A stretch of DNA of 64,000 bases, taken from the NCBI GenBank assembly GCA_964292275.1, contig CAXYUZ010000011.1, positions 13,575 to 77,574 of the forward strand, in the 5' to 3' direction. Position numbers and translations under genes: made by a program. Source of the stretch: an uncultured Desulfuromonadaceae bacterium (lineage in GTDB: Bacteria > Desulfobacterota > Desulfuromonadia > Geobacterales > Pseudopelobacteraceae). Position 1 is the first letter of the stretch; every line of letters starts with the position of its first letter. Of this stretch, positions 20,949 through 28,769 are shown in pieces. Below the pieces are notes generated by a model. It had not been told where the DNA came from and ran no database searches. It saw only the letters and a list, made by a program, of their open reading frames with translations.

Positions 20949-21686
20949 CTAAAGTTCTTTTTCCAACGCATCCGCCCGGTCGCCAGGGGCTGGATGACTG
21001 GAGAAAAGGCTCTTATCGTTACCGTACATCTTTTGCAGCTTACGCAGTGCACTGACAGCAGCCTTTGGATCGTAACCATTCTCTTTCATGAATTTAAGCG
21101 CATACATATCAGCGTCAAGCTCATTCGACTGTGAATACTGGGCATGAGCAAGCTTTTCAGCCAGATCGCCAAGGGCAGACTTCGACAATGCAGCAGCAGC
21201 TCCGCTGCCACTGGCAGCAGCACCTTTTTTCAAGGCAGATGTCGCATAGGCGGTCTGCAGGGCTCCCTTGCTGTGTCCAAGACTGACATGGCCGATTTCA
21301 TGACCGATTACATAACGAATCTCATCGTCTGTCATTACCTTCATCAATCCGGCAAAGACACGAACAGTACCGTCTGCCATGGCAAAAGCGTTAACTTCAC
21401 GCACAAGATAGACCTTGATATCAAGATCCAAACCATTTTCGCTCTTCATTCCCTTGGTAATCTTGGCAAGGCGGACCCCGTACTGATCCCTTTTCGACGC
21501 AACCTTATTCAGCTTGTCATATTCTTTTTTAGCGGCAGTTGCGACACTCTTGACCTCTTCATCGGAGAGTGTTGCCGCCTTGGCCGCATCCTTTCCGGCA
21601 TCAACCATACCACCGATATCCCATGCCTGCGCACTCTGGGCAAACATAACAGCAACAATCCCGGCCAACAAAAACCTCTTCAGCAT
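20949..21686 (-). CDS. M48 family metallopeptidase, secreted/lipoprotein (LoiP/YcaL-like)
   Basis: Signal peptide MLKRFLLAGIVAVMFAQSAQA. HExxH motif HEIGHVSLGH with a downstream E. Confidence 0.75.
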   Translation of the reverse strand: MLKRFLLAGIVAVMFAQSAQAWDIGGMVDAGKDAAKAATLSDEEVKSVATAAKKEYDKLNKVASKRDQYGVRLAKITKGMKSENGLDLDIKVYLVREVNAFAMADGTVRVFAGLMKVMTDDEIRYVIGHEIGHVSLGHSKGALQTAYATSALKKGAAASGSGAAAALSKSALGDLAEKLAHAQYSQSNELDADMYALKFMKENGYDPKAAVSALRKLQKMYGNDKSLFSSHPAPGDRADALEKEL

Positions 21687-21879
21687 CTAGTTTTCCCCCT
21701 GTTTCCCGTATAAACGGTTAATTCAAAAAAACATACATGAGTGTTTTCAAATAGTCAACAACGGATAAATAATTCTGGCTTGCATCGACACCTGTTTACG
21801 TGGCATAATTTAATGTTTTTACGGCCAGTATGGCCCGGCAAACAGATGAAATTTTAACATGACAAAACAGAGGAATTCC

Positions 21880-24210
21880 ATGGCAACCCTTTATATTATC
21901 GGCAGCGGTCCTGGCGACGTAAAACATATGACCGAAGCGGCCCTGTCTGCGATTGCAGAATCCAACACCATCGTCGGTTACGGTAATTACATCGATCTGA
22001 TCAAACCACTCACCACCGGCAAAACAATCGTATCCACCGGCATGATGCGCGAGGTTGAACGTTGCAAAGAAGCGATCCGCCTGACCCGTGAAGGGAACAA
22101 CGTCGCCCTGATCTCCGGCGGTGATGCCGGTATCTACGGCATGGCCGGGCTGATCTTTGAACTTCTTGAAAACGAACTGACTACCGGCGAGGCATTGCCG
22201 CAACCGGAGGTACAGGTCATCCCCGGCATATCGGCCGTACAGGCAGCCGCTTCCGTACTTGGCGCCCCGCTGATGCACGACTTCGCCGTCATCTCCCTCT
22301 CCGACCTGCTGACCCCCTGGGAACTGATCAAGACAAGGATTGAGGCCGCCGCCAAGGCCGACTTCGTCATGGTCATCTACAACCCGCGCAGCAAGACCCG
22401 GGTGACACAGATTGAGGAGGCAAGACGAATCTGCCTCAAATCACGTCCAGCAGAGACACCGGTCGGCATTGTCCGCAATGCCTGTCGCGACGACCAATCG
22501 TTCACGGTCACAACCCTGGGTGAAATGCTCGAACACGAGATTCACATGTCCACCATCGTTACCATCGGCAATGCCAGCAGCTTTATTGACAGCCATGGCA
22601 GAATGGTGACCCCGCGCGGTTATGCCAGAAAATTCAACGCCAACCAGCCTCCCTGCGATACAGACAAACAAAACGATCTCAAACAGCAAGCCAACGCACT
22701 CATGTTCTGTGGCACCGCCTCCGATGTGGGCAAATCCGTTCTCACCGCCGGTTTCTGCCGCATGCTCGTCAACCGTGGTATCAGTACGGCACCGTTCAAA
22801 TCCCAGAACATGTCACTGAACTCATTCGTAACCCTGGAAGGGGGCGAAATCGGCCGCGCCCAGGCCATGCAGGCCGACGCCTGCAAGATCCCGCCCCACA
22901 CCGATATGAACCCGGTACTGTTGAAACCGAACTCTGACACCGGCAGCCAGATCGTGGTCCAGGGACGCCCGGTTGGCAACATGAATGTCCATGAATACGA
23001 TGCCTATAAACCACAGGCATTTGAAAAGGTCACCGAGAGTTTCACCAACCTGTGCAACAATTTCGATTTCATCGTTGCCGAGGGGGCCGGAAGCATCTCC
23101 GAGATCAACCTCAAGCATACAGACATTGCCAACCTGAAGGTGGCTGCCATGGCCGGAGCCCCGGTGATCCTGATTGCCGACATCGACCGTGGCGGTGTCT
23201 TCGCCCAGATCGCCGGTACAATTGACCTGTTGGAGCCGGAGGAACGTGCCCTGGTCAAAGGGGTGATCATCAATAAATTCCGTGGTGATGAATCGCTGCT
23301 GACACCCGGCATCGAATTCATTCAGGAGAAAACCGGCGTACCGGTGCTGGGTGTGATCCCCTGGCTTGCGGAACTCTCTCTTCCGGCCGAGGACAGTGTC
23401 ATCCTCAGTCAAGAGATCAAGAAAACGGCCATGACAAGCGGCAAGGAGATGATCAAGGTCGGCGTCATCCGCCTGCCGCGCATCTCCAACTTCACCGATT
23501 TTGACCGCCTGCAACGTGAAGAGGACATCATCCTCAACTACATCACCACCCCTGAACAGATCGAAGGATTGGATATCCTGATCATCCCGGGCAGTAAATC
23601 CACTATCTCAGACCTGCAGTTCCTGAAAGAACGCGGCCTGTTCGATGCAGTCAAAAACTTCAACGGACGCATCATCGGCATCTGCGGCGGTTTCCAGATG
23701 CTGGGCAACCGGATCAGCGACCCGCAGGGCGTTGAATCGGGCATTGCCGAGGCAGATGGATTTGGACTGCTGCCGGTATCCACCGAGATGACCATTGAGA
23801 AGGAAACTCACCTGGCAACGGGAACCGCAGCAGCAGGGGCAACCCTGATTGCAGGCGGATACAACGGAGAAATCAGCGGCTACGAGATTCACATGGGACA
23901 GACCACCGTTGACCCTGAACGGCCATTTGCCAAACTACACAAACGTGGTGAACAGGATGTCTGCATCGCAGATGGTTCCGTGTCAGCAGACGGCCGGATC
24001 TTCGGCACATACCTGCACGGCGTCTTTGACAACTGCCGCTTCCGTGACGGTTACCTGAACCGTATCCGCACTGAAAAGGGAATGCCGACCAAGGACAACA
24101 GCGCGGCTGTTGAGCCGGATCCTTTTGATCTGCTGGCCGATCACATGGAACGTCATCTTGACATGGCCAAACTATTCGAGATCTGCGGGCTGGATCGTGT
24201 TTCTGCCTGA
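21880..24210 (+). CDS. Fusion protein: precorrin-3B C17-methyltransferase (CbiH/CobJ) N-terminal + cobyric acid synthase (CobQ/CbiP) C-terminal
   Basis: Residues 1-250 are a tetrapyrrole methylase (YIIGSGPGD...). Residues about 270-776 are CobQ, with a DGC/AAA-like ATP-binding N-terminus (FCGTASDVGKS) and a GATase1 domain (IIGICGGFQMLG). There is no stop between the two parts. Start taken at ATG 21880 after AGAGGA. The track start is 21859. Confidence 0.8.
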   Translation: MATLYIIGSGPGDVKHMTEAALSAIAESNTIVGYGNYIDLIKPLTTGKTIVSTGMMREVERCKEAIRLTREGNNVALISGGDAGIYGMAGLIFELLENELTTGEALPQPEVQVIPGISAVQAAASVLGAPLMHDFAVISLSDLLTPWELIKTRIEAAAKADFVMVIYNPRSKTRVTQIEEARRICLKSRPAETPVGIVRNACRDDQSFTVTTLGEMLEHEIHMSTIVTIGNASSFIDSHGRMVTPRGYARKFNANQPPCDTDKQNDLKQQANALMFCGTASDVGKSVLTAGFCRMLVNRGISTAPFKSQNMSLNSFVTLEGGEIGRAQAMQADACKIPPHTDMNPVLLKPNSDTGSQIVVQGRPVGNMNVHEYDAYKPQAFEKVTESFTNLCNNFDFIVAEGAGSISEINLKHTDIANLKVAAMAGAPVILIADIDRGGVFAQIAGTIDLLEPEERALVKGVIINKFRGDESLLTPGIEFIQEKTGVPVLGVIPWLAELSLPAEDSVILSQEIKKTAMTSGKEMIKVGVIRLPRISNFTDFDRLQREEDIILNYITTPEQIEGLDILIIPGSKSTISDLQFLKERGLFDAVKNFNGRIIGICGGFQMLGNRISDPQGVESGIAEADGFGLLPVSTEMTIEKETHLATGTAAAGATLIAGGYNGEISGYEIHMGQTTVDPERPFAKLHKRGEQDVCIADGSVSADGRIFGTYLHGVFDNCRFRDGYLNRIRTEKGMPTKDNSAAVEPDPFDLLADHMERHLDMAKLFEICGLDRVSA

Positions 24211-25171
24211 TCCGCTCGTCATAGCCGCGGCATGCGCACTGGATCTGACAATTGGCGATCCGCGCTGGCTGCCGCACCCGGTCATACTGATCGGCAGGCT
24301 GATCTCGACGCTGGAATCACTGTTGCGCCGTTCACACCTGCCGCTCAAGGGGGCTGGTGTGCTGCTGATGCTGCTGACCGCCGGAATAACCGCCGGTGCA
24401 ACAGCCACACTGCTCTATGCAGCCGGGCAGTACCTGCCCCATGCAGCGGCAGTTCTCATCGCAATCATCATCTCCAGCACCTGCCTGGCGGCACGCTCAC
24501 TGCACCGCGAATCGGCCGTTGTGGCCGAGGCGCTGTTTAACGGCGATATTCAGACCGCACGGACCAGACTGGCCTGGATCGTCGGCCGCGATACCGATCA
24601 ACTGGAAGAACCGGAGATCTGGCGGGCACTGATCGAGACCGTGGCGGAAAACACCGCCGACGGCATCATATCGCCACTCTTCTGGCTGGCGGCGGGTGGC
24701 CCGGTCGCCTGCATGGCCTTCAAGGCAGTCAGCACGCTTGATTCCATGGTCGGCTACAAGAACGAACGTTTCATCGACATGGGTTGGGCCTCAGCCCGGA
24801 TGGACGACCTGCTCAACCTGATCCCGGCCCGTCTGACCGCCGGATTAATGGTGTTTGCCGCACCGCTGACCAGGCTTTCATTTGGCAATGCGCTTAAAAT
24901 CACACTGCGCGACCGTCACAATCACCCGTCACCCAACAGCGCCCACCCTGAATCGGCGGCGGCCGGCGCACTTGGGATCCGCCTCGGCGGCAACTCGACC
25001 TATTCCGGTAAACTATCCGTAAAACAGTACATCGGCGATCCGCTGCATCCCATCGACGGCAACAGTTATCGCGGCATGATCCGGCTGATGTATGCATCAA
25101 CCCTGCTGATGACGCTGCTTTCCGTTGCAGCGGTCGCAATCCTGAGAGGTACCTATGGCACACATCTATGA
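24197..25171 (+). CDS. cbiB: Adenosylcobinamide-phosphate synthase CbiB/CobD
   Basis: N-terminus LVIAAACALDLTIGDPRWLPHPVILIGRLI is canonical for CbiB. Start proposed at GTG 24197, overlapping the upstream stop. The track ATG 24110 would overlap by 100 bp. Confidence 0.75.
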   Translation: MFLPDPLVIAAACALDLTIGDPRWLPHPVILIGRLISTLESLLRRSHLPLKGAGVLLMLLTAGITAGATATLLYAAGQYLPHAAAVLIAIIISSTCLAARSLHRESAVVAEALFNGDIQTARTRLAWIVGRDTDQLEEPEIWRALIETVAENTADGIISPLFWLAAGGPVACMAFKAVSTLDSMVGYKNERFIDMGWASARMDDLLNLIPARLTAGLMVFAAPLTRLSFGNALKITLRDRHNHPSPNSAHPESAAAGALGIRLGGNSTYSGKLSVKQYIGDPLHPIDGNSYRGMIRLMYASTLLMTLLSVAAVAILRGTYGTHL

Positions 25172-26322: not shown

Positions 26323-27720
26323 ATGGAATACAAGATCAAGATCACCTGCCCGGAATGCAACTTCTTCAAGGTTTTCCCGGAAGATCTCCTGCCGAATGGT
26401 GCAAAAACACTGACCTGTCCAAAATGCAATAAAACCTTTCCACTGACCGCCGATTCAATCGCCGTACATTGCGAGCCTGACCCGCCGGCCAGTGTCACAA
26501 ATCCCCCTGCATCAGCAGTGCCACCACCATTGCCAGACAGCACCGACACAGCAGCTCAAATACTACCCCCGCCACTGCCGCAAACAGGTCAACAACCTGA
26601 ACCAGGCGAAACATCCAGCCAGCAGGCCGCAACCCCTCCGCCAATCCCGGTTACCGGTCAGCCAGAGGGACAAACACCCGGCAACCCGCAGACCCTGAAT
26701 TTCGACTTCAAGGGAACAGCAAAAGAATACTTCGGCATCTGGATCGTCAACACCCTGCTGCAGATCATCACCTGCGGAATCTACTCCCCCTGGGCCAAGG
26801 TGCGCCGGAGAAGGTTCTTCTACGCCAGTACCCTGCTGCATAACGAGCCGTTCGACTACCTGGCGGATCCTCTGGTGCTCTTCAAGGGGTGGCTGATCGG
26901 CGCTGTCATGCTGATCCTCTACAGTGTCAGCAATCAGATCAGCCCTTTCCTGAGCATGGCCATCGGTATGATCATATTCGTCGCCATCCCCTGGCTGATC
27001 GTCCGCTCCAAGGTATTCAACAACAGCAATTCAGCGCACCGCAACATCCGTTTCGGATTCAAACCAAACTACCATGAATCCTACGCCGTCTTCATGGGAC
27101 TGCCGATGCTGGTGCCAATCACACTGGGAGCGGCAGCACCCTACGTCAAGTACAGCCAGATCAAGTTTCTGGTGGAGAATACACTTTACGGATCAACACC
27201 CTTCACATTCACTGCAAAGGCCAAGGATTTTTATAAACTTTACATCAAGGTCTTTGGCGGTTTTCTGGCGCTTTTCATCATTACGATCGCATTCGGCAGC
27301 ATGTTGGATCTCAGCAGCTTTTTTTCCAAAAAGGCAACAGAGATATCCGACATGCCCGTTTTATTTTTCCCGCTGATGATCTTCGTGGTGATCAGCTATT
27401 TTCTGCTGATTGTCTACCTGACCACCGAACTGACCAACCTGACCTGGAACAAGACCACCATTACCGGCAACAGCTTTAAAAGTGTGCAGAACCCGTTCAA
27501 GGTGGCCTGGCTTCTGTTCACAAACCTTTTGGCAATCACCCTGACATGCGGTCTGCTGACCCCCTGGGCGACGGTCAGAATGACCCGTTACCGTCTTGAA
27601 TGCCTTTCTCTGGAAACAACCAACGGCATCAGCAGCTTTACCTGCGGCGACCAGAACTACACCACAACCGCCACCGGCGAAGAGATCAGCGATGTATTCG
27701 GCATCGATATCGGTTTATAA
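26323..27720 (+). CDS. Zinc-ribbon (MJ0042-type) + Pro-rich linker + DUF898 (YjgN-like) polytopic membrane protein
   Basis: N-terminal CPEC...CPKC zinc ribbon, about 90 aa of Pro/Thr/Gln-rich linker, then two internally duplicated membrane halves (GIYSPWAKVRRRRFF / GLLTPWATVRMTRY). Confidence 0.65.
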   Translation: MEYKIKITCPECNFFKVFPEDLLPNGAKTLTCPKCNKTFPLTADSIAVHCEPDPPASVTNPPASAVPPPLPDSTDTAAQILPPPLPQTGQQPEPGETSSQQAATPPPIPVTGQPEGQTPGNPQTLNFDFKGTAKEYFGIWIVNTLLQIITCGIYSPWAKVRRRRFFYASTLLHNEPFDYLADPLVLFKGWLIGAVMLILYSVSNQISPFLSMAIGMIIFVAIPWLIVRSKVFNNSNSAHRNIRFGFKPNYHESYAVFMGLPMLVPITLGAAAPYVKYSQIKFLVENTLYGSTPFTFTAKAKDFYKLYIKVFGGFLALFIITIAFGSMLDLSSFFSKKATEISDMPVLFFPLMIFVVISYFLLIVYLTTELTNLTWNKTTITGNSFKSVQNPFKVAWLLFTNLLAITLTCGLLTPWATVRMTRYRLECLSLETTNGISSFTCGDQNYTTTATGEEISDVFGIDIGL

Positions 27721-27728
27721 AAACGGCC

Positions 27729-28769
27729 ATGAACAAGTCAGAAGCGGGATATTACGACGGCAAGGTTTCAACACGCTCACAGGTTTCACTGATCAGTGAC
27801 AATCATACCCTGACCATTGTTGGCGACGGGATCCACCAGATCTACAAGCTTGACGAGGTCCGTGTTTCGGACAAAATCGGCTCTGCCAGACGAAATATCC
27901 TTCTGCCGGACGGTGGACTCTGCGATCCGGACAGACAGGCGTTTGCCAATGATCTGGAACGTCTCCAGAAGCGTGGCCACGCAAACAACATTATCCACAA
28001 GCTGGAAATAAACCTGCACTATGCCCTGGCAGCCCTGCTGCTGACGGCCCTGCTGGTCTTTGCCTTCATCCGCTTTGGCGTACCTCCGCTATCAAAATAT
28101 GTCGCCTTTGCCATCCCCCCCTCCACGGAAAACATGCTCGGCAAACACACCCTGGAAACCCTCGACACCCTGGTCTTCAAACCGAGCAAATTGAATCAAG
28201 AGCGCCGCAAACAGCTGACGGCCCGTTTCAAACAGGTCAGCGCCGCCATTCCCGGAACAGAACAGTGCCGTCTTGAATTCCGCAGCGGAGAATCAGTGGG
28301 TGCCAATGCCATGGCGCTCCCATCGGGCATTGTAGTTGTCACCGATGATCTGGTGGCACTGTCTAAAAACGACGACGAACTGGCCGGCGTCATGGCCCAC
28401 GAACTTGGCCATGTCCTGCATCGCCACATCCTGAGACACTCACTGCAAAGCTCGATTACCGGCCTGCTCATCGCAACACTGACCGGGGACATCACATCGG
28501 CCACATCCATCTCGGCCTCACTGCCGACAGCGTTGGTCAACGCCTCTTACTCCCGTGACTTTGAACGCGAAGCGGATGATATGGCCATCAGCTATATGAA
28601 AAAGAGCGCCATTCCGGTTAGCCGCTATGCCGACATCCTCGCCAGACTGCAGAGCCAGCTTGACGGCAAAAAGGGTTCCAAAAACAAGGACGAGCTGCCA
28701 TTCAAAAATTACCTCTCCACACACCCGGAAACAACCGAACGAATCAAACGCGTGCAGGAGTCGCACTGA
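27729..28769 (+). CDS. M48 family zinc metalloprotease (HtpX-like) with novel N-terminal cytoplasmic domain
   Basis: HExxH motif MAHELGHVLHRH plus downstream FEREAD. A TM hairpin follows an N-terminal soluble domain of about 100 aa. Start sits 8 bp after the DUF898 gene stop. Confidence 0.75.
   Translation: MNKSEAGYYDGKVSTRSQVSLISDNHTLTIVGDGIHQIYKLDEVRVSDKIGSARRNILLPDGGLCDPDRQAFANDLERLQKRGHANNIIHKLEINLHYALAALLLTALLVFAFIRFGVPPLSKYVAFAIPPSTENMLGKHTLETLDTLVFKPSKLNQERRKQLTARFKQVSAAIPGTEQCRLEFRSGESVGANAMALPSGIVVVTDDLVALSKNDDELAGVMAHELGHVLHRHILRHSLQSSITGLLIATLTGDITSATSISASLPTALVNASYSRDFEREADDMAISYMKKSAIPVSRYADILARLQSQLDGKKGSKNKDELPFKNYLSTHPETTERIKRVQESH

What the first reader, a model, noticed from the sequence alone, without database searches (positions are those of the whole stretch)
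21880..24210. Single ORF fusing precorrin-3B C17-methyltransferase (CbiH/CobJ) to cobyric acid synthase (CobQ)
A tetrapyrrole methylase domain (early corrin ring contraction step) is fused in-frame, through a short Pro/Asp/Gln linker (...TPRGYARKFNANQPPCDTDKQNDLKQQANALMFCGTAS...), to a complete CobQ with its glutaminase domain (late amidation step). Fusing non-consecutive pathway enzymes is unusual. It could reflect scaffolding, or a sequencing/frameshift artefact worth excluding.
Basis: seen in the sequence. Interest (0 to 1): 0.55.

Follow-up and report, generated by a model that had tools for sequence, protein, structure and literature searches.

The report
Conserved CbiH–CobQ vitamin B12 fusion enzyme
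One gene really does join an early and a late vitamin B12 enzyme, but this is an old, widely inherited gene fusion of the Geobacter group already present (under-annotated) in public databases, so it is ordinary and not an artefact.

Summary
Window 21880..24210 (+) is one uninterrupted 776-codon gene. It holds a complete CbiH/CobJ C17-methyltransferase (aa 1-255), a ~20-aa linker, and a complete CobQ/CbiP cobyric acid synthase (aa ~272-776). It heads a translationally coupled operon: cbiH::cobQ, cbiB, cobD.

It is not a frameshift artefact. 279 independent full-length database clusters carry the same fusion with all catalytic motifs, including complete genomes of Pelobacter propionicus, Geobacter sp. 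SVR, Geobacter sp. DSM 9736 and Geomonas spp.

Both halves are under purifying selection (dN/dS 0.08-0.27). The linker evolves near-neutrally, varies from 23 to 88 aa, and is predicted disordered.

In Geobacter and Geomonas the fused gene sits in the canonical cbiH slot (…cbiF-cbiG-[cbiH::cobQ]-cbiB-cobD) and is the only cbiH in the cluster. Outgroups have cbiH and cobQ as separate near-neighbours. So the 'non-consecutive' fusion is a read-through at the seam between the ring-synthesis and late halves of one operon.

Two lineages secondarily lost the CbiH half; the one with readable flanks (L014) carries a foreign stand-alone cbiH. CobQ is also fused elsewhere to CbiF, CbiJ, CobD and others.

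Verdict: real, functional and bifunctional, but ordinary. The practical lesson is annotation: databases call it only 'cobyric acid synthase'.

The parts
21880..24210 (+). cbiH::cobQ fused gene (776 aa; the longest ORF starts at 21859, but 21880 is the likely start)
   Evidence: ORF; SD GAGGA upstream of ATG 21880; orthologue N-termini; Pfam and NCBIfam domains
21880..22644 (+). CbiH/CobJ domain: SAM-dependent cobalt-factor III / precorrin-3 C17-methyltransferase (ring contraction), aa 1-255
   Evidence: TIGR01466 at 307 bits, above the 246 cut-off. Aligns aa 1-255 to crystal structure 2ZVB (E 2e-60), including the terminal TPRGYA. Foldseek top hits are 2zvb and 3nut. Invariant GGD, PG, SLSDL, NP and TPRGY. 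dN/dS 0.08-0.20
22645..22692 (+). Inter-domain linker (about aa 256-271; NQPPCDTDKQNDLKQQ)
   Evidence: Conservation dip and gaps. TPRG-to-P-loop spacing is 23-88 aa, median 31, rich in P/A/S/G/E. dN/dS 0.7-1.2. pLDDT below 50 for residues 246-269
22693..24210 (+). CobQ/CbiP domain: ATP-dependent synthetase module (P-loop GTASDVGKS) plus GATase_3 glutaminase module (Cys602, His713), aa 272-776
   Evidence: NF001989 at 634 bits, TIGR00313 at 540 bits; Pfam CbiA and GATase_3; invariant P-loop, C602 and H713; dN/dS 0.13-0.27
24197..25171 (+). cbiB (adenosylcobinamide-phosphate synthase); GTG start overlaps the fusion's stop by 14 nt
   Evidence: TIGR00380 at 232 bits, above the 166 cut-off; sequence at the junction; the same 14-nt overlap in L007-L010
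25155..26231 (+). cobD (L-threonine-O-3-phosphate decarboxylase); overlaps cbiB by 17 nt
   Evidence: TIGR01140 at 340 bits, above the 290 cut-off; ORF coordinates
21687..21879 (+). Upstream intergenic region shared with the divergent M48 peptidase gene; no cobalamin riboswitch; weak sigma-70-like match at 21744-21773
   Evidence: Rfam at gathering threshold and at E<=10: nothing; promoter scan no better than shuffles

Best explanation
The gene encodes a genuine bifunctional enzyme of the anaerobic (early-cobalt) cobamide pathway. Its two catalytic units act independently.

The N-terminal CbiH unit uses SAM to methylate C17 of cobalt-factor III and trigger ring contraction, giving cobalt-precorrin-4. 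About nine steps later, the C-terminal CobQ/CbiP unit uses ATP and glutamine-derived ammonia to amidate four remaining carboxylates of adenosylcobyrinic acid a,c-diamide. That yields adenosylcobyric acid, which the next two gene products (CbiB, with aminopropanol phosphate from CobD) carry on.

The fusion arose once, in an ancestor of the Geobacter, Geomonas and Pelobacter propionicus group. It arose by read-through at the seam where the last ring-synthesis gene (cbiH, after cbiG) abutted the first late gene (cobQ-cbiB-cobD) of one operon. It has been inherited as a unit since.

The tether is a disordered, freely evolving linker. The likely benefit is only co-expression and one fewer translation start, not substrate channelling. 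In the window's lineage the operon later broke, leaving cbiH::cobQ-cbiB-cobD as a detached three-gene operon.

Shown: architecture, conservation, selection, genomic contexts, single origin. Inferred: both activities (from orthology and motifs), lack of channelling, and that the CbiH half is the only CbiH in this particular genome.
For: (1) Both domains are full-length and above curated equivalog cut-offs. The CbiH half is 48-50 % identical to Salmonella-type CbiH and aligns end to end with 2ZVB.

(2) 279 full-length fused clusters retain GxGPG, TPRG, the P-loop and CGG[FY]Q. Invariant residues are listed.

(3) dN/dS is 0.08-0.20 for CbiH, 0.13-0.27 for CobQ and 0.7-1.2 for the linker. The CbiH half is more conserved than the CobQ half (69-81 % against 64-70 %).

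(4) In Geomonas L001 and Geobacter sp. DSM 9736 L013 the order is cbiD-cbiET-cbiL-cbiF-cbiG-[fusion]-cbiB-cobD, with no other cbiH. This matches the published G. metallireducens / G. sulfurreducens operon '...cobLIM-cbiG-cobQ-cbiB-cobD', which names no cobJ (PMC2700814). For G. sulfurreducens, all anaerobic enzymes except CbiJ are reported present (PMC7726332) and cobamide genes are essential without vitamins (PMC5585712).

(5) Outgroups have unfused neighbours: cbiG-cbiH-cobA-cobQ in L004 and cbiG-cbiH in L005.

(6) Single origin: only one 50 %-identity cluster has this architecture among 1.84 billion representatives. Distances for the two domains covary (Mantel r 0.87, 0/999).

(7) A natural replacement: unfused CobQs P0123 and P0391 nest inside the fused clade in 100/100 bootstraps. 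L014 carries a foreign ring cluster with its own cbiH, only 50 % identical.

(8) The linker is 23-88 aa with no conserved sequence. It has pLDDT below 50, and pTM is 0.62.
Against: No biochemical data exist for any member, so both activities are inferred.

I could not search the rest of the window's genome, or the complete P. propionicus or Geobacter sp. SVR genomes, for a second stand-alone cbiH. In this lineage the fused gene is detached from the ring-synthesis genes. 'Sole CbiH' is therefore shown only for the Geobacter/Geomonas cluster type.

A flexible linker does not exclude transient association in a multi-enzyme complex. No PAE map or multimer model was available to test inter-domain contacts.

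No regulatory element (riboswitch) was found, so how the operon is controlled is unknown.
Confidence: 0.8

Rival explanations
1. Assembly or sequencing artefact: a frameshift or lost stop codon falsely joins separate cbiH and cobQ genes.
For: Raw reads were not available. Indel-prone assemblies do distort this locus, though in the opposite direction: L015 and L016 split the gene into pieces.
Against: 279 independent full-length fused clusters exist, from NCBI isolates, JGI, ENA and Logan, including complete genomes. An independent 98 %-identical assembly keeps the frame. The junction has no long homopolymer, and the other two frames hold 31 and 33 stops.
Confidence: 0.01
2. The CbiH-like half is a redundant or non-catalytic paralogue in this lineage, for example a corrinoid-binding or dimerisation module for CobQ. 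The working CbiH would be encoded with cbiG elsewhere in the genome.
For: In the window's clade the fused gene is physically separated from all ring-synthesis genes. The rest of these genomes could not be searched. Class III tetrapyrrole methylases are dimers (own knowledge), so the domain could serve to dimerise CobQ.
Against: All SAM and substrate motifs are invariant. The score exceeds the TIGR01466 equivalog cut-off. dN/dS is 0.08-0.20, lower than for the CobQ half, within this very clade. In the sister clade it is demonstrably the cluster's only CbiH. Of the two lineages that lost the domain, the one with readable flanks (L014) carries a separate cbiH.
Confidence: 0.08
3. Functional scaffolding or channelling: the fusion tethers an early and a late enzyme so that a corrin 'metabolon' assembles, passing enzyme-bound intermediates along.
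For: Cobalamin intermediates are labile and tightly enzyme-bound (own knowledge of the enzyme-trap work on the aerobic pathway). CobQ is repeatedly found fused to other pathway enzymes: CbiF, CbiJ and CobD. The fusion has been retained for a long time, even after the operon split.
Against: The two reactions are about nine steps apart (PMC7242693), so there is nothing to hand over directly. Linker length varies 23-88 aa, with a neutral substitution rate and predicted disorder. pTM of 0.62 gives no sign of a fixed interface. The CbiH half was lost cleanly once a separate cbiH was available. Every fusion partner of CobQ is equally well explained by operon adjacency.
Confidence: 0.1

Closest known systems
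Stand-alone CbiH / CobJ (cobalt-factor III / precorrin-3B C17-methyltransferase; Salmonella CbiH; structures 2ZVB/2ZVC from T. thermophilus and 3NUT, R. capsulatus CobJ)
   Same: Full-length class III tetrapyrrole methylase fold. It is 43 % identical to 2ZVB and 48-50 % to Salmonella-type CbiH, with all motifs conserved, and scores above the TIGR01466 cut-off.
   Different: It is not a free-standing protein of about 240 aa: its C-terminus continues through a disordered linker into CobQ. It lacks the C-terminal Fe-S extension of B. megaterium CbiH60 (own knowledge; no extra domain was detected).
Stand-alone CobQ / CbiP cobyric acid synthase
   Same: Complete synthetase module (P-loop) plus GATase_3 module with Cys and His. 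NF001989 scores 634 bits over 479/480 positions. It is followed by cbiB and cobD, as in many operons.
   Different: It carries an N-terminal methyltransferase. No close CobQ structure turned up in the PDB searches: none at E<=1e-10 by sequence, and the best fold matches for that half are GatD/MurT-type amidotransferases.
CobD::CbiP fusion of Trichlorobacter (Geobacter) lovleyi and Pelobacter carbinolicus (PMC3403914), and the other CobQ fusions found here (CbiF::CobQ P0211, CbiJ::CobQ P0201/P0131)
   Same: The same acceptor (CobQ at the C-terminus), the same logic (an operon neighbour fused on), and the same pathway.
   Different: The N-terminal partner differs. These are independent events: P0211's methylase is CbiF, matching TIGR01465.
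Classical multifunctional tetrapyrrole enzymes (CysG; CobL = CbiE+CbiT; CbiET)
   Same: Fusions of pathway enzymes, including class III methylases, that are well accepted as bifunctional (PMC7242693).
   Different: Those join consecutive or near-consecutive steps. Here the steps lie about nine reactions apart.

Membership tests
CbiH/CobJ precorrin-3B (cobalt-factor III) C17-methyltransferase (TIGR01466) | Score above the curated equivalog-domain cut-off over the full model | tested here: met
   307.4 bits against a 246.35 cut-off, profile 1-239/239
CbiH/CobJ precorrin-3B (cobalt-factor III) C17-methyltransferase (TIGR01466) | Class III methylase fold with conserved SAM-binding motifs (GxGPG, GGD, PG[IV][ST], YNP) | tested here: met
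   Alignment to 2ZVB and 3NUT; Foldseek TM (target-normalised) 0.80-0.87; invariant columns
CbiH/CobJ precorrin-3B (cobalt-factor III) C17-methyltransferase (TIGR01466) | Genomic association with the other ring-contraction genes (cbiF, cbiG, cbiD, cbiL) | tested here: inconclusive
   Met in orthologues L001 and L013, where it lies directly after cbiG. Not met in the window itself, which has no other cbi ring genes in 64 kb.
CbiH/CobJ precorrin-3B (cobalt-factor III) C17-methyltransferase (TIGR01466) | SAM-dependent C17 methylation and ring contraction activity | not testable with these tools
   Needs an enzyme assay or genetics
CobQ/CbiP cobyric acid synthase (NF001989 / TIGR00313) | Score above the curated equivalog cut-offs over the full model | tested here: met
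   634.5 bits (cut-off 273) and 540.1 bits (cut-off 309.9); profile 2-479/480
CobQ/CbiP cobyric acid synthase (NF001989 / TIGR00313) | N-terminal P-loop synthetase module plus C-terminal GATase_3 with a nucleophilic Cys and a His | tested here: met
   Pfam CbiA 281-510 and GATase_3 533-726; invariant GTxSDVGKS, C602 and H713 across 59 sequences
CobQ/CbiP cobyric acid synthase (NF001989 / TIGR00313) | ATP- and glutamine-dependent amidation of adenosylcobyrinic acid a,c-diamide | not testable with these tools
   Needs an enzyme assay
Geobacterales CbiH::CobQ fused orthologue group | Collinear full-length match to both halves in one polypeptide, followed by overlapping cbiB and cobD | tested here: met
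   62-98 % identity at 98-99 % coverage to 119 clusters. The same cbiB overlap recurs in relatives: 14 nt in L007-L010, 4 nt in L011; the 17-nt cobD overlap recurs throughout L007-L011.

The most novel reading that the evidence does not exclude
The fusion may be more than a passive read-through. The dimeric CbiH module could dimerise CobQ or anchor it in a Cbi multi-enzyme complex, so that an early-step and a late-step enzyme are co-localised and cobamide flux is co-ordinated. Under this reading, CobQ's repeated capture of other pathway enzymes (CbiF, CbiJ, CobD) reflects a general role as an assembly hub of a B12 'metabolon'.
Probability: 0.08. Interest if true: 0.55.

Novelty: new member of a known kind. 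Interest (0 to 1): 0.2.

Why it matters
Mainly for annotation and pathway prediction. Every public record seen here names this protein only 'cobyric acid synthase' or 'CobQ'. The published Geobacter operon string also omits cobJ/cbiH (PMC2700814). Name-based surveys could therefore score Geobacter-group genomes and MAGs as lacking the ring-contraction enzyme. Loss of cbiH is taken as a cause of corrinoid auxotrophy in Dehalobacter restrictus (PMC4285132). Geobacter relatives supply cobamides to organohalide-respiring communities, so calling them producers correctly has ecological relevance.

The locus is also a tidy evolutionary example. It shows fusion at an operon seam, inheritance as a unit, later operon break-up, and loss of one half, with a foreign gene supplying the function in the one such lineage whose flanks could be read (L014). 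It does not open a new mechanism.

Tried and rejected
(1) Artefact hypothesis: rejected (see rivals).

(2) Cobalamin riboswitch upstream: none at Rfam gathering threshold over the whole window, nor at E<=10 for 21500-22000.

(3) Promoter and terminator scan: hits no more frequent than in shuffles, so uninformative.

(4) The genome-contig scan returned only 6 loci, because the derived peptide patterns were too specific. It was useful for outgroups but not for a taxonomic census.

(5) P0211 and P0200 looked like distant CbiH::CobQ fusions in the representative search. They proved to be CbiF::CobQ and CobD::CobQ.

(6) Apparent stand-alone CobQs P0438 and P0412 are frameshift-fragmented fusions in a noisy assembly. 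P0122 and P0124 are a contig-edge fragment and a frameshifted copy.

(7) Literature searches for an explicit description of the fusion (cobJQ, cbiH-cobQ and similar terms) found nothing in the held library. That library omits most subscription journals, so this does not prove the fusion is undescribed.

(9) An internal translation start at the invariant Met275 was considered. There is no Shine-Dalgarno upstream, and this Met is a conserved CobQ core residue (own knowledge of the Salmonella CbiP N-terminus), so I did not pursue it.
Full report
OBSERVATION. The window holds one uninterrupted ORF at 21859..24210 on the + strand (783 aa). The probable start is ATG 21880. Pfam finds TP_methylase (10-223), CbiA (281-510) and GATase_3 (533-726). 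NCBIfam finds TIGR01466 cobJ_cbiH at 307 bits against a 246 cut-off, over the full 239-position model. It also finds NF001989 cobyric acid synthase at 634 bits against 273, over 479 of 480 positions. The coding frame contains only its terminal stop; the other two frames contain 31 and 33 stops. The junction DNA has no homopolymer longer than four bases.

NOT AN ARTEFACT. Three protein searches returned 279 distinct 90 %-identity clusters that are full length (759-831 aa). All keep the four signature motifs: GxGPG, TPRG, the P-loop and CGG[FY]Q. They come from NCBI isolates, JGI, ENA and Logan assemblies. They include complete genomes of Pelobacter propionicus, Geobacter sp. SVR, Geobacter sp. 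DSM 9736 and several Geomonas species, plus draft isolate genomes of Oryzomonas. An independent assembly of a near-identical organism (L012; 98 % aa identity, about 43 nucleotide differences) keeps the frame open and has the same neighbours. Assembly errors do affect this gene, but in the opposite direction. In one noisy ENA assembly it is split into fragments, along with many neighbouring genes (L015 and L016).

ANATOMY. The CbiH half aligns over residues 1-255 with the Thermus thermophilus precorrin-3 C17-methyltransferase crystal structure 2ZVB (E 2e-60). The alignment includes the C-terminal TPRGYA that ends the stand-alone enzyme. It also aligns with Rhodobacter capsulatus CobJ, 3NUT. The CbiH half is 48-50 % identical to Salmonella-type CbiH.

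Across 59 diverse fused orthologues, the invariant CbiH residues include GGD (81-82), PG (115-116), SLSDL (139-143), NP (168-169) and TPRGY (244-248). The invariant CobQ residues include the P-loop GTxSDVGKS (278-286), EGAGS (401-405), DIDRGG (434-439), Cys602 and His713.

Between the two halves lies a segment with no conserved sequence. The TPRG-to-P-loop spacing ranges from 23 to 88 residues (median 31), and the composition is rich in Pro, Ala, Ser, Gly and Glu. AlphaFold2 folds both halves with moderate to good confidence (mean pLDDT 77) but gives pLDDT below 50 for residues 246-269. The global pTM is only 0.62. That is what two independently folded modules on a flexible tether would give. 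Foldseek matches the N-terminal half to 2zvb and 3nut, and the glutaminase part to GatD/MurT-type amidotransferases. No solved CobQ structure appeared.

SELECTION. Nei-Gojobori estimates were made between the window and six relatives. dN/dS is 0.08-0.20 for the CbiH half, 0.13-0.27 for the CobQ half and 0.7-1.2 for the linker. Within the window's own clade the CbiH half is the more conserved one, at 69-81 % identity against 64-70 %. Both catalytic halves are therefore maintained by selection, and the linker drifts.

OPERON AND CONTEXT. cbiB starts at GTG 24197 and overlaps the fusion's stop codon by 14 nt. cobD (threonine-phosphate decarboxylase) starts at 25155 and overlaps cbiB by 17 nt. The same overlaps recur in relatives. 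No other cbi or cob gene lies in the 64-kb window. No cobalamin riboswitch lies upstream, even at E<=10.

The surrounding synteny is prfC, a che cluster, a sigma-54 activator, an SLT transglycosylase, then the operon. It is shared with P. propionicus, Geobacter sp. SVR, Oryzomonas japonica and two metagenomic relatives. The window has two extra genes inserted before the operon: an MBL-fold hydrolase and a LoiP-like M48 peptidase.

WHY THESE TWO ENZYMES. In Geomonas (L001) and Geobacter sp. DSM 9736 (L013) the fused gene lies inside the large anaerobic cluster. The order is cbiM-N-Q-O ... cbiX-cbiC-cbiD-cbiET-cbiL-cbiF-cbiG-[cbiH::cobQ]-cbiB-cobD. It occupies the canonical cbiH slot after cbiG, and it is the only CbiH-type methylase in the cluster. 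This matches the operon published for G. metallireducens and G. sulfurreducens, '...cobLIM-cbiG-cobQ-cbiB-cobD', which lists no cobJ/cbiH at all (PMC2700814). For G. sulfurreducens, all anaerobic enzymes except CbiJ are reported present (PMC7726332). Its cobamide genes are essential in vitamin-free medium (PMC5585712).

Outgroups keep the genes separate but close: cbiG-cbiH-cobA-cobQ-cobU-cobS in a Desulfobacteraceae MAG (L004), cbiG-cbiH in L005, and cobA-cobQ in L003. The fusion of 'non-consecutive' enzymes is therefore a fusion of consecutive genes. It sits at the seam between the ring-synthesis half and the amidation/nucleotide-loop half of one operon. The steps are about nine reactions apart in the pathway (PMC7242693), so direct hand-over of product is not possible.

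ONE ORIGIN, THEN BREAK-UP AND LOSS. I searched 1.84 billion 50 %-identity representatives exhaustively. Only one cluster (P0121) has the CbiH::CobQ architecture at full length; the other spanning hits are fragments. Pairwise distances of the two halves covary strongly (Mantel r 0.87, 0 of 999 permutations). So the halves have been inherited together since a single event.

The window's clade then detached cbiH::cobQ-cbiB-cobD from the ring genes.

Two genuinely unfused CobQs were found, P0123/L014 and P0391/L017. They nest inside the fused clade in 100 of 100 bootstraps. Their operon is cobU-cobT-cobS-(cobC)-cobQ-cbiB-cobD. L014 carries, divergently, a ring cluster organised like the T. lovleyi plasmid pSZ77: cbiE-cbiJ-cbiH-cbiG-cbiF-cbiD-cbiL-cbiK. 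Its stand-alone cbiH passes TIGR01466, but it is only 50 % identical to the fused CbiH half, so it is foreign (PMC3403914). This is a natural replacement experiment: the methylase half disappeared where another cbiH was available. That argues the fused half is the working C17-methyltransferase elsewhere.

HOW UNUSUAL. CobQ is a frequent fusion acceptor. The same search found:
- CobD-aminotransferase::CobQ, the type reported for T. lovleyi and P. carbinolicus (PMC3403914)
- CbiJ::CobQ
- CbiF::CobQ
- CN-hydrolase::CobQ
- ABC-ATPase::CobQ
. Multifunctional tetrapyrrole enzymes such as CysG and CobL are textbook cases (PMC7242693). I found no paper in the held library that names the CbiH::CobQ fusion. 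All database names seen are just 'cobyric acid synthase' or 'CobQ'.

LIMITS. No biochemistry exists for any member. I could not search the remainder of this genome, or the complete P. propionicus-clade genomes, for a second cbiH. 'Sole CbiH' is therefore shown for the Geobacter/Geomonas cluster type and inferred for the window's lineage from orthology, motif invariance and strong purifying selection. No PAE or multimer model was available, so transient complex formation is not excluded.

VERDICT. This is a real, conserved, almost certainly bifunctional enzyme. It is a new member of an existing but under-annotated orthologue group, produced by an ordinary operon-neighbour fusion. Interest is low (0.2). 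The value lies in correcting annotation, because the cbiH is hidden, and in a clean evolutionary vignette.

Noticed in passing
proteins P0196, P0201, P0131, P0211, P0258, P0200, P0135 (one search hits): CobQ is fused at its N-terminus to many different partners in public data: CbiJ, CbiF, CobD aminotransferase, an ABC ATPase and a CN_hydrolase. The CN_hydrolase case is odd, because a nitrilase-type amidase is joined to an enzyme that already has its own glutaminase domain.
   Followed up: partly
L013:4421-4963 and L013:2476-3240 (Geobacter sp. DSM 9736 cbi operon): A PNPOx-like FMN-binding protein sits between cbiC and cbiD, and a class I methyltransferase is embedded in the cbi operon. PMC7726332 reports that CbiJ (precorrin-6 reductase) is missing in G. 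sulfurreducens, so the flavoprotein is a candidate non-orthologous replacement.
   Followed up: no
window:21687-21879: There is no cobalamin riboswitch ahead of the cbiH::cobQ-cbiB-cobD operon, even at E<=10. The big Geobacter cobalamin operons are reported to have conserved 5' elements (PMC2700814 Table 2). Regulation of the detached operon is unknown.
   Followed up: partly
L009:14371-14787; L011:14537-14956: A NikR-like gene (RHH_1 + NikR_C) lies directly downstream of cobD in two relatives and could be a metal-responsive regulator of the operon. It is absent at that position in the window.
   Followed up: no
window:19760-21686 (-) and 26323-28769 (+): Compared with P. propionicus, Geobacter sp. 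SVR and Oryzomonas, the window has an MBL-fold hydrolase and a LoiP-like M48 peptidase inserted between the SLT gene and the operon. After cobD come a Zn-ribbon/DUF898 protein and a second M48 peptidase, so two M48 peptidases bracket the B12 operon.
   Followed up: no
L015 and L016 (ENA ERZ25039545): Many genes in these contigs are split into short pieces (CbiC of 67 aa, CbiX of 101 aa, methylase fragments directly upstream of CobQ). This is the indel pattern of a noisy assembly, and it creates false 'stand-alone' CobQ entries in protein databases.
   Followed up: yes
window:28-8539; window:47146-51114 (-): A type I restriction-modification system (N6_Mtase, HsdR) lies at the left end of the window. 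A 1322-aa RHS-repeat protein (DUF6531 + RHS) lies further right, with small ORFs downstream of it. Both are unrelated to the finding.
   Followed up: no
L017:1619-4613 (-): In one of the two lineages that lost the CbiH half, a phage-type integrase and a rolling-circle Rep gene lie just upstream of cobU-cobT-cobS-cobQ. This hints that mobile DNA was involved in rearranging the locus.
   Followed up: no
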